From Candidatus Kariarchaeota archaeon (GTDB taxonomy: Archaea; Asgardarchaeota; Heimdallarchaeia; Heimdallarchaeales; Kariarchaeaceae), in the NCBI GenBank assembly GCA_016839545.1, contig JAEOUB010000124.1, forward strand, positions 1 to 5,171: a DNA stretch of 5,171 bases. Reading direction: 5' to 3'. The notes below the pieces were generated by a model. The model was not told where the DNA came from, searched no databases, and worked only from the letters and a program-made list of their open reading frames with translations. Positions 72 through 5,171 of the stretch are shown in pieces. How positions within the stretch are numbered: the first letter of the stretch is position 1; each line of letters begins with the position of its first letter. Both the position numbers and the translations under genes were made by a program.

Positions 72-959
72 TTAGGCTAGTTCAGTCGCAATTCTATCTT
101 TTGCAAGCTGGCAGTAGCTCTTATCAATATCAACCATGATGTAATTACGAGAAGTCTGAATTGCTGCAATGGCTGTTGTTCCTGCTCCTGAAAACGGATC
201 TAGGACGACATCACCAGCAAATGAATACATCTCAATCAGGCGTTTTGGAAGTTCTACAGGAAATGGAGCAGGATGGCCTACCTTCTTGGCAGATGCTGTT
301 GGAAATGTCCAGATACTCTTGGTTGATTCGAGAAAATCATCTTTTGAGATGGTATCAGTTTTATTGTGTTTGGAGTTCTTCCTTGAAAATTCACCCTTTG
401 AGTAAATGAGAATATATTCATGAACATCTCGCAATGTTGGCGAAGATGCTGATTGCCATGATCCCCATGCAGTTGAGGTGCCAGCAGAAGCTGCTTTGTT
501 CCAGATTATCTCCCCTCGCATGAAAAAGCCAAGATCGATCATCATAGAATTGATATACGTACTGAGTGGAATGTATGGTTTTCTTCCGACATTTGCAACA
601 TTAATACAAACACGTCCACCTCTGATTAAGACACGATTTACCTCTTGCATGACCTCTTTGAGCATAGAAAGGTACTCACGAAGGGATAGATCGACATCAT
701 AGTCCTTGGAAACATTGTATGGGGGTGATGTAATTACCAGATGAACGCTATTATCTGGGATCTGTTTCAAATCCCTAGAATCAGCTTGAAGAACAGAATT
801 GACAAGAGAATGTGGTAGGGGCGTTTCTTGTATGTTTTTCTCCTCTCGAAAAGAGTACTCCTGATAGAGATTGGATTCATAGAATACACTGGAATCATGA
901 CGTTCGCGTTTAGAGGACCCAAATGATCTGGTAGAAGTTCCCTTTTTCATGGAAATCAA
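72..959 (-). CDS. DNA methyltransferase, N4/N6 family, beta-class; likely m4C-type; no cognate nuclease in the window
   Basis: 295-aa ORF. Motif IV is VITSPPY (SPPY encoded at 717-728, checked by reverse-complementing). It lies N-terminal to motif I, LDPFSGAGTT, near the C-terminus, and this order defines the beta group. S-P-P-Y/F is typical of N4-cytosine enzymes. The track start at 959 is TTG and overlaps the upstream stop (TTGA). The first ATG is at 950-948 and may be the real start. Confidence 0.85.
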   Translation of the reverse strand: MISMKKGTSTRSFGSSKRERHDSSVFYESNLYQEYSFREEKNIQETPLPHSLVNSVLQADSRDLKQIPDNSVHLVITSPPYNVSKDYDVDLSLREYLSMLKEVMQEVNRVLIRGGRVCINVANVGRKPYIPLSTYINSMMIDLGFFMRGEIIWNKAASAGTSTAWGSWQSASSPTLRDVHEYILIYSKGEFSRKNSKHNKTDTISKDDFLESTKSIWTFPTASAKKVGHPAPFPVELPKRLIEMYSFAGDVVLDPFSGAGTTAIAAIQTSRNYIMVDIDKSYCQLAKDRIATELA

Positions 960-1429
960 CGGTTAAATGCGAATTTACCTGTAAGTAGAGCTAATCCCAG
1001 CGTAAGTGTACCTATAGAACCGATATCACCAGCAGGTACCTGAACAACTTCATTACCCTTCTCGAGATCTTTCCTTCCCAATCCAGGATCATTTCCTCCG
1101 AAAACTGCGACCCACCTCTTTCCTTCAAGGGTGCTCACAAATTCAGAGTCTAGATTTTTCTTCCCATATGGAGGAGGGGCAACTACTATGATAGTTTCGG
1201 GTTGAAGAAGTTCGATTACATCGTCCAAGCTCCCCAGGGAGAAGAAATTGATACCATTTTGCATTGCCAATTTCTGGGCGGAAGGCAGACCCCTCTGTGC
1301 AGCACTTCCCTGGGCATGTGTGATCGCTAATGTCTTGAAACCCATTCCAGCAGCGATTTTAACAAACTCTGAGCAGCTGTTAGAAGATGCTACATTATGG
1401 AGTACTACAATTGGATACTCAACAGGCAT
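956..1429 (-). CDS. Conserved hypothetical protein, possible SPOUT (SpoU/TrmH-like alpha/beta-knot) RNA methyltransferase fold
   Basis: 157-aa ORF with an ATG start (1429-1427) and a TGA stop at 958-956, abutting or overlapping the methyltransferase start. The C-terminal segment VAVFGGNDPGLGRKDLEKGNEVVQVPAGDIGSIGTLTLGLALL resembles SPOUT motifs 2 and 3 (vfG.E..Gl ... v.IP ... SLN...A.ai.l). The coding call is solid. The family assignment is from memory of motif patterns only. Confidence 0.5.
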   Translation of the reverse strand: MPVEYPIVVLHNVASSNSCSEFVKIAAGMGFKTLAITHAQGSAAQRGLPSAQKLAMQNGINFFSLGSLDDVIELLQPETIIVVAPPPYGKKNLDSEFVSTLEGKRWVAVFGGNDPGLGRKDLEKGNEVVQVPAGDIGSIGTLTLGLALLTGKFAFNR

Positions 1430-1463
1430 ACACTCCCTACGGAATACCTGCTATAATTACCTT

Positions 1464-1940
1464 CTATAGTGTTCTATCACCAGCAATTTCCTGTGATCGC
1501 AGACGAGTAGAGGATATGGGCTCACCATCCACATATATCCAAGGGATAACAACTATATCGAGTATATTGAGGTCAGCTTCCTCTCTCATGGCATTGATGC
1601 GATGGGCTGAAGGTTCTGTTTCATACGAAACTACAATAACTTCAGCATTTGGATCATGAGGAGCAGGTCCCCAAGGATCCAGTAGTTCTCCAACTTCAAA
1701 TCTTACATCGAATTGAGAGAGGAAATCTGAGACACCAGTGGCTCTTTCCTTGTACGATTGAATGAGATGATTGTTGTCTTTTTTTGCAAAGAGGGTTTTG
1801 CCCAATTCATCTCCAACAATACCGACAAACACTTCATCGGCAATATTTGCGGCAGTTCTCAACAATGACCTGTGTGCGTCATGAAGTCGATCGAATGTCC
1901 CTCCCATCATTGCCTTTCGGTACACATGCACACTCATCAT
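1464..1940 (-). CDS. coaD: Phosphopantetheine adenylyltransferase, archaeal/eukaryotic type (cytidylyltransferase fold)
   Basis: 158-aa ORF. It carries the nucleotidyltransferase signature GGTFDRLHDAH (a T/HxGH-type motif) at the N-terminus and ISSTRLR near the C-terminus. Size is about 155-160 aa, as in archaeal PPATs. ATG-ATG start at 1940-1935 and TAG stop at 1466-1464. Confidence 0.8.
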   Translation of the reverse strand: MMSVHVYRKAMMGGTFDRLHDAHRSLLRTAANIADEVFVGIVGDELGKTLFAKKDNNHLIQSYKERATGVSDFLSQFDVRFEVGELLDPWGPAPHDPNAEVIVVSYETEPSAHRINAMREEADLNILDIVVIPWIYVDGEPISSTRLRSQEIAGDRTL

Positions 1941-1966: not shown

Positions 1967-2056
1967 GAATCTTGTATCATCTTTATTTTGAAGAAAATGG
2001 AATACCACATTCTAGGAAAGCAGAAGCTTGGTGATGGAGTGTAATCTAAATCTAAG

Positions 2057-2064
2057 TTTAAATA
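2057..2064 (+). promoter_or_regulatory. Archaeal TATA box (TTTAAATA) for the 5S rRNA transcription unit
   Basis: Near-consensus TTTAWATA box preceded by an A-rich segment. The usual spacing of about 26 nt puts the start near G2086-G2088. That gives a leader of about 50 nt ahead of the 5S body. Confidence 0.55.
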
Positions 2065-2114
2065 AGTTGAATTTCAAGAGAGTTTGTGTCTCGCTCACGG
2101 GTGAGTCACAATTC

Positions 2115-2139
2115 ATAGGAGATCCTAAGCGGGAAAGTT
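2115..2139 (+). other. 5' (leader) strand of the BHB processing motif: outer helix 2115-2129, central 4 bp 2130-2133, bulge AAA 2134-2136, inner helix 2137-2139
   Basis: Pairs checked by hand. U2123-A2263, C2124-G2262, C2125-G2261, U2126-A2260, A2127-U2259, A2128-U2258, G2129-C2257. C2130-G2253, G2131-C2252, G2132-C2251, G2133-C2250. G2137-C2249, U2138-A2248, U2139-A2247. The outer stem extends with G2121-C2265, A2120-U2266, G2119-C2268, G2118-C2269, A2117-U2270, U2116-G2271 (wobble) and A2115-U2272. Confidence 0.7.
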
Positions 2140-2255
2140 AAGCCTTTCAGCGGCCGACATTACTATGGTGCGTGAGCCCATGGGAACTTCGGCACGTTGC
2201 ATATTATTGCGGCCATAGCGAGAGTGTGACACCGGGACACATACCGAACCCCGAT
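2136..2255 (+). rRNA. 5S: 5S rRNA, circularly permuted gene. 3' segment 2136-2201, 6-nt linker 2202-2207, 5' segment 2208-2255. 120 nt between the predicted BHB cleavage sites.
   Basis: Hallmark 5S strings are present but in swapped order. GCGGCCAUAGCG (normally the 5' end) lies at 2209-2220. Loop C ACACAUACCGAAC (2237-2249) is closed by CGGG/CCCG. GUUAAGCC...CAGCG lies at 2137-2152. Helix V is GCCGA(2153-2157)/UCGGC(2189-2193). Helix IV is AUGG/CCAU, capped by UGCGUGAGC (2169-2177). GGGAAC lies at 2182-2187. Every canonical helix forms once 2255 is joined to 2136. Confidence 0.8.
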
Positions 2256-2272
2256 ACTTAGGACCTGCCTGT
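2247..2272 (+). other. 3' (trailer) strand of the BHB processing motif: inner helix 2247-2249, central 4 bp 2250-2253, bulge AUA 2254-2256, outer helix 2257-2272
   Basis: Complement of the leader strand listed above. On both strands the 3-nt bulge lies 3' of the central 4-bp segment. This is the same arrangement as in archaeal pre-tRNA and pre-rRNA BHB substrates. Confidence 0.7.
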
Positions 2273-2283
2273 AAAAATTCTAA

Positions 2284-2306
2284 AGCGGTTTTTAACCGCT
2301 TTTTTT
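2284..2306 (+). terminator. Hairpin plus oligo-T terminator of the 5S unit
   Basis: A 7-bp stem AGCGGUU (2284-2290) / AACCGCU (2294-2300) with a UUU loop runs straight into a T7 tract (2300-2306). Oligo-T tracts are the established archaeal termination signal. Confidence 0.65.
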
Positions 2307-2361: not shown

Positions 2362-2892
2362 ATGGTCAAAAAGATCCTGATGGGCAGTGTTGTTACCCAG
2401 ATACTTGATGACTTTGCACCTGAGATACCTGAGAATAAACGATATCAAGTAGAAAATGGTGTAAGTTTACGATTACAATCAACGCTTGGTGATAACTGGG
2501 CAGTGATGCCAGTTTCTGGACCTACCATGATCTTGCTTACATTGATCCTAAATTACATGCTTCTTCCCCTGGGTATTACTCCTGTTATGATAGCAGACAA
2601 AGTAATCACAAAGAGTAAAGAGATGGAGCTTGGAGAGAGATTTGCAGACCTTATTGAGTCCGCTAAAGTCACGGCAACCAATACTGGGGAATTCACTCAA
2701 GAGAAACTGAAAGACCTTCAGGACTATTTGGAAGAAAAAGGTGTGACTGAAAAGGTTAGAGAACTTGCTGATAGCTCGGTGGAGATGGGAAAACAAGCAC
2801 TTTCAACTGGAGTTTCAAAGGGAAAACGTATGTTTGACAGTGTGAAAACAAGGTTCCAAACAGAAGAAGAAAAAGACAATGAAACTACGTGA
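2362..2892 (+). CDS. Hypothetical protein with one hydrophobic segment and a charged, helical C-terminal half
   Basis: 176-aa ORF with an ATG start and a TGA stop at 2890-2892. It has a hydrophobic stretch TMILLTLILNYMLLPLGITPVMI, then a Lys/Glu-rich region (EKLKDLQDYLEEKGVTEKVRELADSSVEMGKQ...). I recognise no family. The antisense 82-aa ORF looks like low-complexity noise, so this strand is preferred. Confidence 0.6.
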   Translation: MVKKILMGSVVTQILDDFAPEIPENKRYQVENGVSLRLQSTLGDNWAVMPVSGPTMILLTLILNYMLLPLGITPVMIADKVITKSKEMELGERFADLIESAKVTATNTGEFTQEKLKDLQDYLEEKGVTEKVRELADSSVEMGKQALSTGVSKGKRMFDSVKTRFQTEEEKDNETT

Positions 2893-4289: not shown

Positions 4290-5171
4290 ATGAGCGCAGC
4301 AGATGAAAAGTTACCCCCCAGCGATCGTCCTGAAGTCGAACTCAGAGTAGCCGAAGCAAAGAATCGAGATGTGATTCGAGGGAAAATCCGGCTTGACAAT
4401 GATGCCATGAAGGAAATCGGTATCTCCACAGGTGAAATTGTAGAGATTGAGGGTAAACGCATCACAGCTGCTGTTGCCTGGCCTGCATACCCCGAAGACC
4501 TGAAGAGGAACATTATCCGGATGGACTCTGTTATTCGAAAGAATGCAGGAGTTTCACTCAGTGAGAAGGTAAAGGTACGAAGAGCAAAGGTTGAGAAAGC
4601 AACACATGTTGTATTTGCACCTGCTCAACTCAATGTCTCACTAGAATTCGGATTTGAGAGTTTTGTTAAGAGAAAACTGTTGGGATATCCCCTCACACCC
4701 AATGATACGGTAATGATACCAGTATTGGGAAGAGCAAACCCCTTTGTGGTTGCATCCAGCAAACCAGAAGGAATAGTTCTAGTCACTGATGACACAAAGC
4801 TAGAGGTCACAGATCAACCTATCAAGGAGATCAACGCCAAAACCACAATTAGCTACGAGGATATTGGAGGTATAGATGGCGTTATCACCAAACTCCGAGA
4901 GATGGTTGAGTTACCACTTCGACACCCAATTCTCTTTGAGAAATTGGGTATAGATCCTCCCAAAGGAGTACTCCTCCATGGTCCCCCTGGAGTCGGAAAA
5001 ACATTGCTTGCACGTGCTGTGGCCAATGAAACCAGTGCCCACTTCATAACCATCAATGGACCTGAAATCATGTCCAAATACTACGGTGAAAGTGAGCAGA
5101 CACTCCGCTCCATATTCAGAGAGGCTGAGGAGAAATCACCATCGATAATATTCATCGATGAGATTGATGCA
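4290..5171 (+). CDS. cdc48: CDC48/VCP/VAT-type AAA+ ATPase, 5' partial (N-domain plus start of D1; continues past the window end)
   Basis: My own translation from ATG 4290 gives 294 stop-free codons to the window end, with an in-frame TGA at 4269-4271 just upstream. The product begins [70 protein letters not shown]..., a CDC48 double-psi-barrel N-domain. It continues ...[61 protein letters not shown] (Walker A at 4980-5003) ...[12 protein letters not shown] (Walker B). It is absent from the ORF track only because it lacks a stop in the window. Confidence 0.92.

What the first reader, a model, noticed from the sequence alone, without database searches (positions are those of the whole stretch)
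2196..2213. Helix I, normally carrying the 5S termini, is a closed hairpin capped by UAUUAU
The 3' strand of helix I, GUUGCA (2196-2201), and the 5' strand, UGCGGC (2208-2213), are separated by only 6 nt (UAUUAU, 2202-2207). They pair as G-C, U-G wobble, U-G wobble, G-C, C-G, A-U. The natural 5' and 3' ends of 5S rRNA are therefore covalently joined in the gene, through a short A/U loop on a shortened 6-bp helix I. After BHB excision and ligation, two outcomes are possible. The RNA could stay as a covalently closed circular 5S in the ribosome. Alternatively it could be re-opened in this A/U loop to recreate conventional ends. Either route would be an unusual 5S maturation pathway. The helix I terminus is solvent-exposed in known ribosome structures, so a capping loop is structurally plausible.
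Basis: inference. Interest (0 to 1): 0.7.

Follow-up and report, generated by a model that had tools for sequence, protein, structure and literature searches.

The report
Circularly permuted 5S rRNA gene in Asgard archaea
An uncultured Asgard archaeon (Kariarchaeaceae) encodes its 5S ribosomal RNA back-to-front, with the usual ends joined by a small capping loop and a tRNA-intron-type splice signal in the flanks that should cut the RNA out and close it into a 120-nt ring; standard gene finders cannot see such a gene.

Summary
Such a hairpin is not rare by chance. Its meaning comes from context. 2208-2255 matches Rfam 5S positions 4-51 and 2136-2201 matches positions 51-116, so the two strands are the helix I strands of a permuted 5S gene lacking the three terminal pairs. 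Leader and trailer form a canonical bulge-helix-bulge (BHB) motif. Its cleavage sites (2135|2136, 2255|2256) excise exactly 120 nt, which fold into the classic 5S shape once rejoined.

I found six diverged lineages, all linked to a syntenic PPAT gene, and the window's strain is named Ca. Kariarchaeaceae at NCBI. Across them, 26 of 46 pairs show compensatory changes. Helix I pairs in every lineage and its loop-closing pair is A-U, U-A or G-C. The BHB outer helix covaries at 8 of 10 pairs. The leader, helix III 5' strand and shared 3' strand co-vary three ways.

Rfam's curated threshold misses all six genes. Closed Heimdallarchaeum genomes were published with no detectable 5S. The closest precedent is the permuted, circular SRP RNA of Thermoproteus.

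Whether the mature 5S stays circular, is re-opened, or is never ligated remains untested, as does whether this is the only 5S gene.

The parts
2044..2065 (+). Promoter-like block; TATA-like box TTTAAATA at 2057-2064
   Evidence: The block ATCTAAAxxTAAGTTTAAATAA is conserved upstream of the gene in the window, L004, L005 and L001. Its function as an archaeal promoter is inferred.
2088..2119 (+). Leader of the precursor (approximate 5' end), with conserved motif YACGGG (CACGGG at 2096-2101)
   Evidence: ACGGG is invariant in four lineages. The transcription start is inferred from its distance to the TATA-like box. The role of the motif is unknown.
2120..2129 (+). BHB outer helix, 5' strand (core UCCUAAG 2123-2129)
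   Evidence: It pairs with 2257-2266. 8 of the 10 pairs show compensatory double changes across six lineages.
2130..2133 (+). BHB central 4-bp helix, 5' strand (CGGG); copies the helix III 5' strand
   Evidence: It pairs with CCCG 2250-2253. It becomes CGGA/UCCG in L054 and CUGG/CCAG in L058, and the helix III 5' strand changes identically. RNAalifold predicts this helix independently.
2134..2136 (+). 5' BHB bulge AAA; predicted cleavage between 2135 and 2136
   Evidence: Invariant in six lineages. The cleavage position follows from the standard BHB rule (established knowledge, not tested).
2136..2201 (+). 3' part of 5S rRNA (loop B 3' side, helix II 3' strand, helices V/IV, loops E/D, helix I 3' strand)
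   Evidence: RF00001 model positions 51-116, 28.1 bits, E 1.2e-4.
2196..2201 (+). Helix I 3' strand GUUGCA
   Evidence: Aligned to RF00001 positions 111-116. Paired in 6 of 6 lineages.
2202..2207 (+). Capping loop UAUUAU, joining what are normally the 3' and 5' ends of 5S
   Evidence: Invariant in five lineages. It is UAAGA in L058.
2208..2213 (+). Helix I 5' strand UGCGGC
   Evidence: Aligned to RF00001 positions 4-9. The closing pair covaries as A-U, U-A or G-C.
2208..2255 (+). 5' part of 5S rRNA (helix I 5' strand, loop A, helix II 5' strand, loop B, helix III, loop C)
   Evidence: RF00001 model positions 4-51, 22.4 bits, E 0.003.
2247..2253 (+). AAC (BHB inner helix, pairs with GUU 2137-2139) plus CCCG (shared 3' strand of the BHB central helix and of helix III)
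   Evidence: This stretch has two mutually exclusive partners. Three-way covariation is seen in L054 and L058. The BHB conformer is favoured in the precursor by 1.3-17 kcal/mol.
2254..2256 (+). 3' BHB bulge AUA; predicted cleavage between 2255 and 2256
   Evidence: Invariant in six lineages. It is left unpaired in the MFE and RNAalifold folds.
2257..2266 (+). BHB outer helix, 3' strand (core CUUAGGA 2257-2263)
2282..2306 (+). Terminator-like hairpin (2282-2302) and T-run (2300-2306)
   Evidence: Found by the consensus scan. All six lineages have an oligo-T run shortly after the trailer.

Best explanation
Window 2136-2255 is a stand-alone, circularly permuted 5S rRNA gene of a Kariarchaeaceae (Heimdall-group Asgard) archaeon.

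It is transcribed from its own promoter as leader, 3' part of 5S, helix I capped by UAUUAU, 5' part of 5S, trailer, then an oligo-T terminator. Leader and trailer pair into a canonical hBHBh' motif: an outer helix of 7-10 bp, a 4-bp central helix, two 3-nt bulges (AAA and AUA), and a 3-bp inner helix.

The tRNA splicing endonuclease (EndA) should cut at 2135|2136 and 2255|2256. RtcB should then join U2255 to A2136, giving a 120-nt covalently closed RNA.

Loss of the leader frees CCCG 2250-2253 to pair with CGGG 2233-2236 as helix III. The RNA then adopts the normal 5S three-way junction. The only difference is that helix I has 6 bp and is closed by a loop instead of carrying the termini.

Shown here:
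- The permuted gene order.
- The homology of both parts to 5S.
- The BHB geometry.
- The capped helix I.
- Conservation of all of these, with compensatory changes, in six lineages.

Inferred:
- Cleavage, ligation and ribosome incorporation.
- That the mature form most likely stays closed at helix I, that is circular. A 6-bp helix with two G.U pairs is short for an open terminal helix, and the closest precedent, Thermoproteus SRP RNA, stays circular.
For: - Both halves match RF00001 separately and abut at model position 51.
- The collinear scan finds only the 3' part, at 27.3 bits, below the gathering score of 38.
- The rejoined 120-mers of three lineages fold by MFE into the 5S three-way junction.
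- Six diverged copies were found: window/L011, L004, L005/L006, L001-3, L054 and L058. They come from independent assemblies (JGI, ENA, Logan, NCBI) and pairwise precursor identity falls to 53.5%.
- For the mature pairs plus the outer helix, 96.4% of cells pair, 26 of 46 pairs have double changes, 0 of 500 shuffles reach this, and slid controls pair 37-43%.
- For the BHB plus helix I, 97.1% of cells pair, 11 of 24 pairs have double changes, and 0 of 500 shuffles reach this.
- RNAalifold recovers the BHB central helix on its own, although that helix was not in the model used to build the alignment.
- The bulges AAA and AUA are invariant.
- The BHB conformer is favoured in all six precursors.
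- A promoter-like block and oligo-T runs are conserved.
- Precedents: permuted circular SRP RNA (PMC4731332); a cp5S engineered in E. coli by joining the native ends with a tetraloop (PMC7283268).
- 5S could not be predicted in closed Heimdallarchaeum genomes (PMC8813620).
Against: - There are no RNA data, so cleavage, ligation, circularity and ribosome incorporation are all inferred.
- Only 5-48 kb contigs were available, with at most about 20 kb read around each gene. A second, collinear 5S gene elsewhere in these genomes cannot be excluded.
- With only six sequences, relatedness inflates the shuffle statistics. Alignments A3 and A4 were fitted to the model structure.
- The invariance of UAUUAU in five lineages could equally mark a processing site, which would favour re-opening.
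- A 2026 paper states that archaeal 5S, unlike 16S and 23S, is not processed through circles (PMC12918454).
Confidence: 0.6

Rival explanations
1. Same permuted gene and the same BHB excision and ligation, but the circle is only an intermediate. An endonuclease opens or removes the UAUUAU loop to recreate conventional 5' and 3' ends on helix I. This would parallel the permuted tRNAs of Cyanidioschyzon, or the re-linearised 16S/23S circles.
For: The loop sequence is invariant in five lineages while the adjacent closing pair covaries, as expected for a recognition site. Re-linearisation of circular pre-rRNAs is the textbook archaeal pathway (PMC12918454).
Against: Opening the loop would leave a terminal helix of only 6 bp with two G.U pairs. 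The duplex energy is -5.3 kcal/mol, and the Rfam consensus helix has 9 pairs. The loop differs in L058 (UAAGA), so there is no universal signal. The circle is exactly 120 nt, a typical 5S length, which suggests the loop substitutes for the missing three pairs.
Confidence: 0.2
2. The BHB is cut but the ends are not ligated, or only partly. The functional 5S would then be a linear permuted molecule with termini at 2136 and 2255, in the strand linking helix III to helix II. It would be held together by helices II and III.
For: A nick at this position would leave every 5S helix intact (structure). Naturally permuted linear mitochondrial 5S rRNAs exist in brown algae (PMC4267664).
Against: Every characterised archaeal BHB product, including tRNA introns, pre-16S/23S and Thermoproteus SRP RNA, is ligated (PMC4731332; PMC3326292). 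The junction restores the conserved GAUAGUUAAG strand of loop B.
Confidence: 0.1
3. The locus is not the ribosomal 5S. It would be a 5S-derived RNA with another role, or a decaying rearranged copy, while a normal collinear 5S gene elsewhere supplies the ribosome.
For: Whole genomes could not be examined. My two collection scans were too narrow to settle the distribution.
Against: Every 5S helix and the universally conserved loop sequences are maintained by compensatory substitutions over a divergence down to about 55% identity, together with a conserved promoter, BHB and terminator. This is incompatible with a pseudogene. No collinear 5S appeared at the Rfam gathering score in 115 kb of related loci. 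Closed genomes of the related genus Heimdallarchaeum have no detectable conventional 5S.
Confidence: 0.07
4. Assembly artefact: a chimeric join of two 5S fragments.
For: None beyond the unusual gene order.
Against: The same arrangement appears in at least seven independently assembled contigs from different samples and assemblers. They have diverged sequences and conserved synteny.
Confidence: 0.01

Closest known systems
Permuted, circular SRP RNA of Thermoproteus tenax / T. uzoniensis (Plagens et al. 2015, eLife, PMC4731332)
   Same: An archaeal housekeeping ncRNA gene that is permuted at the DNA level. It has a stand-alone promoter. Leader and trailer fold into a BHB cut by the tRNA splicing endonuclease. 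The canonical terminal helix is lost or shortened and replaced by continuous sequence. The gene is invisible to standard gene finders.
   Different: A different RNA (SRP RNA, not rRNA) and a different phylum (Thermoproteota hyperthermophiles). There the circular mature form and protein binding were shown experimentally. Here nothing is shown at the RNA level.
Circularly permuted tRNA genes of Cyanidioschyzon merolae (Soma et al. 2007, cited in PMC4267664)
   Same: The 3' half is encoded upstream of the 5' half. The natural ends are joined by a short linker. A BHB-like motif at the new ends gives a circular intermediate.
   Different: It is a eukaryotic nuclear system. The linker is removed afterwards to recreate normal acceptor-stem ends, so the circle is only an intermediate. 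This corresponds to rival 1 here.
Circularly permuted 23S rRNA of Pyrococcus/Thermococcus, and circular 23S in archaeal ribosomes (PMC7758197; bioRxiv 10.64898/2026.03.23.713588; PMC12918454)
   Same: BHB-dependent circularisation of an rRNA, with a circular or permuted form ending up in the ribosome.
   Different: Those genes are collinear and only the RNA becomes permuted or circular. Here the gene itself is permuted, and circularisation is needed to restore the normal 5S connectivity. The 2026 paper states that 5S is not processed this way.
Permuted mitochondrial 5S rRNA of brown algae (Valach et al. 2014, PMC4267664)
   Same: A natural 5S in which helix I no longer carries both termini and a hairpin takes its place.
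   Different: There the ends sit at the open three-way junction. There is no BHB, no ligation, and no swap of gene halves. Here the break lies between helix III and helix II and is expected to be resealed.
Engineered cp5S rRNA in E. coli (Huang et al. 2020, PMC7283268)
   Same: The native 5S ends are joined by a small loop, with new ends elsewhere.
   Different: It is artificial and bacterial. The new ends are in loops C or D and are grafted into 23S, so it is not a free circle.
Low-level circular forms of conventional 5S in Sulfolobus and Halobacterium (Danan et al. 2012, PMC3326292)
   Same: A roughly 123-nt circular 5S species seen in archaeal RNA-seq.
   Different: The gene is collinear, the species is minor, it was not validated by RT-PCR, and it may be a degradation or processing by-product.

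Membership tests
5S rRNA (Rfam RF00001) | The collinear sequence reaches the family's gathering score (38 bits) | tested here: not met
   The best collinear hit is 27.3 bits in the window and 29.2 bits in L004. None of the six genes is reported at gathering threshold. The failure is due to the order of the halves, not their content.
5S rRNA (Rfam RF00001) | Sequence homology of all domains (loop A CCAUAG, loop C CCGAAC, GUUAAG, loop E UGGGAA) | tested here: met
   2208-2255 matches model positions 4-51 (22.4 bits). 2136-2201 matches model positions 51-116 (28.1 bits). The two abut at the predicted junction.
5S rRNA (Rfam RF00001) | Three-way junction of helix I, helices II-III and helices IV-V, supported by covariation | tested here: met
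   The MFE fold of the rejoined 120-mers gives this shape. 96.4% of cells pair and 26 of 46 pairs show double changes.
5S rRNA (Rfam RF00001) | The 5' and 3' termini lie at the end of helix I | tested here: not met
   In the gene, helix I is closed by a 5-6 nt loop in all six lineages. The termini of the mature RNA are unknown.
5S rRNA (Rfam RF00001) | Component of the large ribosomal subunit | not testable with these tools
   This needs ribosome purification or cryo-EM.
Archaeal BHB-processed, circularised RNAs (tRNA introns, pre-16S/23S, permuted SRP RNA) | hBHBh' geometry: two 3-nt bulges on opposite strands separated by exactly 4 bp and flanked by helices | tested here: met
   The parts are the outer helix 2120-2129/2257-2266, the central helix 2130-2133/2250-2253, the bulges 2134-2136 and 2254-2256, and the inner helix 2137-2139/2247-2249. 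The geometry is identical in six lineages.
Archaeal BHB-processed, circularised RNAs (tRNA introns, pre-16S/23S, permuted SRP RNA) | The helices of the motif are maintained by compensatory change | tested here: met
   Outer helix: 8 of 10 pairs with double changes. Central helix: 2 of 4. The inner helix is invariant, which is uninformative.
Archaeal BHB-processed, circularised RNAs (tRNA introns, pre-16S/23S, permuted SRP RNA) | Cleavage by EndA and ligation by RtcB, with junction-spanning reads | not testable with these tools
   No transcriptome or enzyme assay was available.
Brown-algal type permuted mt-5S (mtPerm-5S) | Helix I is replaced by a 5' hairpin, the termini lie at an open three-way junction, and domain order is otherwise unchanged | tested here: not met
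   Here the gene halves are swapped at the helix III / helix II linker, and a BHB flanks them. Compare the description in PMC4267664.

The most novel reading that the evidence does not exclude
The permuted gene is the only 5S rRNA gene of Kariarchaeaceae, and divergent versions exist in other Heimdall-group Asgard archaea. The product would enter the ribosome as a covalently closed 120-nt circle with a capped helix I. That would be the first natural circular 5S rRNA and the first rRNA gene permuted at the DNA level in archaea. It would explain why closed Heimdallarchaeum genomes appear to lack 5S.
Probability: 0.4. Interest if true: 0.9.

Novelty: new variant of a known kind. Interest (0 to 1): 0.8.

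Why it matters
- 5S rRNA is universal, and its gene order and helix I termini are thought to be invariant outside organelles. A DNA-level permutation that depends on the tRNA-splicing machinery would make ribosome biogenesis in this lineage dependent on EndA and RtcB in a new way.
- It offers a concrete, testable answer to a published puzzle: no 5S gene could be predicted in complete Heimdallarchaeum genomes (PMC8813620). These genomes belong to the archaeal group closest to eukaryotes.
- It exposes an annotation blind spot. All six genes fall below Rfam's threshold, so MAG quality calls that require 5S will wrongly fail these genomes.
- A naturally circular or capped 5S would be a natural counterpart to engineered cp5S ribosomes.
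- The three-way covariation (leader, helix III 5' strand, shared 3' strand) is a clean natural example of a processing-coupled RNA conformational switch.

Tried and rejected
1. The whole-window Rfam scan finds only the 3' part, below threshold. The gene had to be split into halves to be recognised.
2. A genome-contig scan used GGTGNGNGANCNNNTGGGAAN{14,44}CCATAGC. It gave three hits, all chance matches inside bacterial ABC-ATPase genes. In hindsight this pattern matches only the window/L004 lineage, so the null result says little about GTDB genomes.
3. A metagenome-contig scan used a broader signature and returned 38 loci. Apart from two matches that look like coding sequence (L018, L044), the rest are ordinary collinear bacterial 5S genes with a chance TGGGAR in the upstream spacer. 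The exception is L035, which is the same contig as L006. That pattern also misses L001, L054 and L058.
4. A homologue search with the flanking ORF 2362-2892 found only the ORF itself.
5. An exact look-up of the 158-aa PPAT ORF failed because the called gene starts one codon later.
6. PPAT relatives L007, L012, L051-53 and L055-57 have no permuted 5S within the DNA held. The 15.6-bit hit in L055 is a gapped false positive.
7. Treating the hairpin as significant on its own was rejected.
8. Assembly chimera and pseudogene readings were rejected because of the independent assemblies and the compensatory evolution.
9. Literature searches for an archaeal permuted or circular 5S gene found none. The library covers only open-access papers and bioRxiv.

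Full report
**Observation**

The window reads GTTGCA (2196-2201), TATTAT (2202-2207), TGCGGC (2208-2213). On its own this is not remarkable. The + strand of the window contains 59 hairpins of equal quality, against 50.7 +/- 8.4 in shuffled sequence. The case therefore rests on what the two strands are.

**What it is**

A whole-window Rfam scan reports only a sub-threshold 5S hit covering the 3' part (27.3 bits; gathering score 38). I then scanned the two pieces separately.
- 2208-2255 aligns to RF00001 model positions 4-51 (22.4 bits, E 0.003).
- 2136-2201 aligns to model positions 51-116 (28.1 bits, E 1.2e-4).

The two pieces abut at one model position. UGCGGC falls on helix I positions 4-9 and GUUGCA on positions 111-116. 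The gene is therefore a circular permutation of 5S rRNA. The order is 3' part, helix I closed by six nucleotides, then 5' part. The three outermost helix I pairs of the consensus are missing. When the pieces are rejoined at U2255->A2136, the 120-nt sequences of three lineages fold by MFE into the classic three-way junction.

**The flanks**

Leader and trailer form a canonical hBHBh' motif with these parts:
- Outer helix: 2120-2129 with 2257-2266 (core UCCUAAG/CUUAGGA).
- Central 4-bp helix: CGGG 2130-2133 with CCCG 2250-2253.
- Two 3-nt bulges on opposite strands: AAA 2134-2136 and AUA 2254-2256.
- Inner helix: GUU 2137-2139 with AAC 2247-2249.

The standard rule is cleavage after the second bulge nucleotide. 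This is the geometry that places archaeal tRNA introns at 37/38 (established knowledge).

A TATA-like box (TTTAAATA, 2057-2064) lies in a conserved block upstream. A hairpin and T-run lie downstream (2282-2306). The locus is therefore a self-contained transcription unit lying between a PPAT gene and an orphan ORF.

**Relatives**

The neighbouring PPAT protein led to related contigs. A covariance model built from the first three copies (R1), then a second built from five (R2), found permuted 5S genes in six diverged lineages:
- window, identical to L011
- L004
- L005/L006
- L001-L003
- L054
- L058

Scores range from 87 to 189 bits. Pairwise precursor identity falls to 53.5%. The contigs come from independent JGI, ENA, Logan and NCBI assemblies, which excludes an assembly chimera. 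The window's own strain and L054 are named Candidatus Kariarchaeaceae archaeon at NCBI. This is a Heimdall-group Asgard family.

**Covariation**

On the six-lineage alignment I counted pairs for two structures.
- Mature 5S pairs plus the BHB outer helix: 96.4% of cells pair and 26 of 46 pairs have changes on both sides. None of 500 shuffles reaches this, and slid-partner controls pair only 37-43%.
- BHB plus helix I: 97.1% of cells pair and 11 of 24 pairs have double changes, again with 0 of 500 shuffles reaching this.

Helix I pairs in every lineage.
- The pair next to the loop is A-U (four lineages), U-A (L001) or G-C (L054).
- The second pair is U.G, C-G or U-A.
- The first pair is G-C or G.U.

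Helix II, whose two strands lie in different halves of the gene, shows five double changes. This shows that the halves function together.

The BHB outer helix covaries at 8 of 10 positions. The bulges AAA and AUA are invariant.

There are caveats. Six related sequences inflate the shuffle statistics, and the alignment was fitted to the model's structure. However, it is almost gap-free. RNAalifold also predicted the BHB central helix independently, although that helix was not part of the model.

**A conformational switch**

CCCG 2250-2253 is both the 3' strand of the BHB central helix and the 3' strand of helix III, where its partner is CGGG 2233-2236. In L054 all three strands change together (CGGA, CGGA, UCCG). 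In L058 they do so again (CUGG, CUGG, CCAG). Both pairings are therefore under selection.

In all six precursors the BHB conformer is 1.3-17 kcal/mol more stable than the conformer with helix III formed. The likely sequence of events is that the leader holds the 3' strand in the BHB until cleavage. Once the leader is gone, helix III forms.

**The capping loop**

UAUUAU is invariant in five lineages whose precursors are 62-97% identical, even though the adjacent pair covaries. In L058 the helix has 7 bp and the loop is UAAGA. The loop is therefore constrained within a subclade but is not universal.

I cannot tell whether it is a protein contact, a stability element or a cleavage signal. Three points favour a loop that stays closed:
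- The shortness of helix I (6 bp, two of them G.U).
- The exact 120-nt length.
- The Thermoproteus SRP RNA precedent, where the terminal helix was likewise replaced by continuous sequence in a stable circle (PMC4731332).

Huang et al. 2020 engineered a cp5S in E. coli by joining the native ends with a tetraloop. They report that those ends lie at least 50 A from the nearest 23S site (PMC7283268). A cap there is therefore sterically plausible.

**Comparison with known systems**

This works like the permuted SRP RNA of Thermoproteus and the permuted tRNA genes of Cyanidioschyzon. It is related to the BHB-dependent circular or permuted 23S of Thermococcales and other archaea.

It differs from the "permuted" mitochondrial 5S of brown algae, which has no half-swap, no BHB and no ligation. 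Low-level circles of conventional 5S were seen in Sulfolobus and Halobacterium but were not validated. A 2026 paper still states that archaeal 5S, unlike 16S and 23S, is not processed through circles. Eight full-text searches of open-access papers and preprints, six of them aimed at a permuted or circular archaeal 5S, found no description of such a gene.

**Why it may be the real 5S**

None of the six genes reaches Rfam's gathering score, either in the window or in 115 kb of related loci. Wu et al. [quoted passage not shown] This fits a hidden, permuted gene in the wider group, but I could not test it.

My single genome-collection scan used a pattern that, in hindsight, only the window/L004 lineage satisfies. 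The metagenome pattern misses three of the six lineages. The distribution I report is therefore a lower bound, and the absence of a collinear paralogue is not established.

**Verdict**

The finding is a new variant of a known kind of system: a BHB-dependent permuted archaeal ncRNA gene, here applied for the first time to 5S rRNA and found in Asgard archaea. Three things remain open and need RNA-level data: whether the mature RNA is a circle (my estimate is about 0.6), is re-opened in the loop (about 0.2), or is left unligated (about 0.1).

Noticed in passing
window 2096-2101 (CACGGG); L004, L005 and L001 leaders (alignment A5): A motif YACGGG is conserved in the leader between the promoter block and the BHB in four lineages. 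It sits in a small potential hairpin (C-UACG-G in L001). It contains the same CGGG as the BHB central strand and the helix III strand, so it could be a third competitor for CCCG. Its role is unknown.
   Followed up: partly
window 2130-2133 vs 2233-2236 vs 2250-2253; the same columns in L054 and L058: In every lineage the four leader nucleotides of the BHB central helix are identical to the helix III 5' strand (CGGG, CGGA or CUGG). This suggests either an origin by duplication or strict co-evolution of a processing-coupled switch.
   Followed up: yes
window 72-1940 (- strand); L001, L004, L005, L011: There is a conserved gene string: PPAT, then a DUF2122/SPOUT-like protein, then an N6/N4 DNA methyltransferase, often followed by an Exo_endo_phos nuclease. 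The permuted 5S lies 0.1-3.8 kb upstream of PPAT in all six lineages. A SPOUT-like methyltransferase next to an rRNA gene may or may not be meaningful.
   Followed up: partly
window 2362-2892 (+): A 176-aa ORF lies immediately downstream of the 5S. It has no Pfam domain and the search found no homologue except itself. L004 has a 179-aa ORF in the same position.
   Followed up: partly
window 4290-5171 (+), runs off the end: This is the N-terminal part of a CDC48/VCP-type AAA+ ATPase (CDC48_N, CDC48_2 and AAA domains). The - strand ORFs listed there are antisense artefacts.
   Followed up: yes
L055 7063-7150 (+): A tRNA hit spans 88 nt (54.5 bits). That is long enough to contain an intron or a long variable arm. 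No 5S was found on this 20-kb stretch from a more distant PPAT relative.
   Followed up: no
L001 11626-11687 (-); L005 5241-5289 (+): Two sub-threshold C/D-box-like hits (SNORD31 at 26.6 bits, SNORD39 at 23.1 bits). They may be archaeal C/D sRNAs or chance matches. The L005 hit lies inside the DUF2122 gene.
   Followed up: no
L008, L009, L010: The first 5S signature pattern matched the antisense strand of bacterial ABC-transporter ATPase genes by chance. This is a reminder that about 21 specified bases still give a few random hits in 596 Gb.
   Followed up: yes
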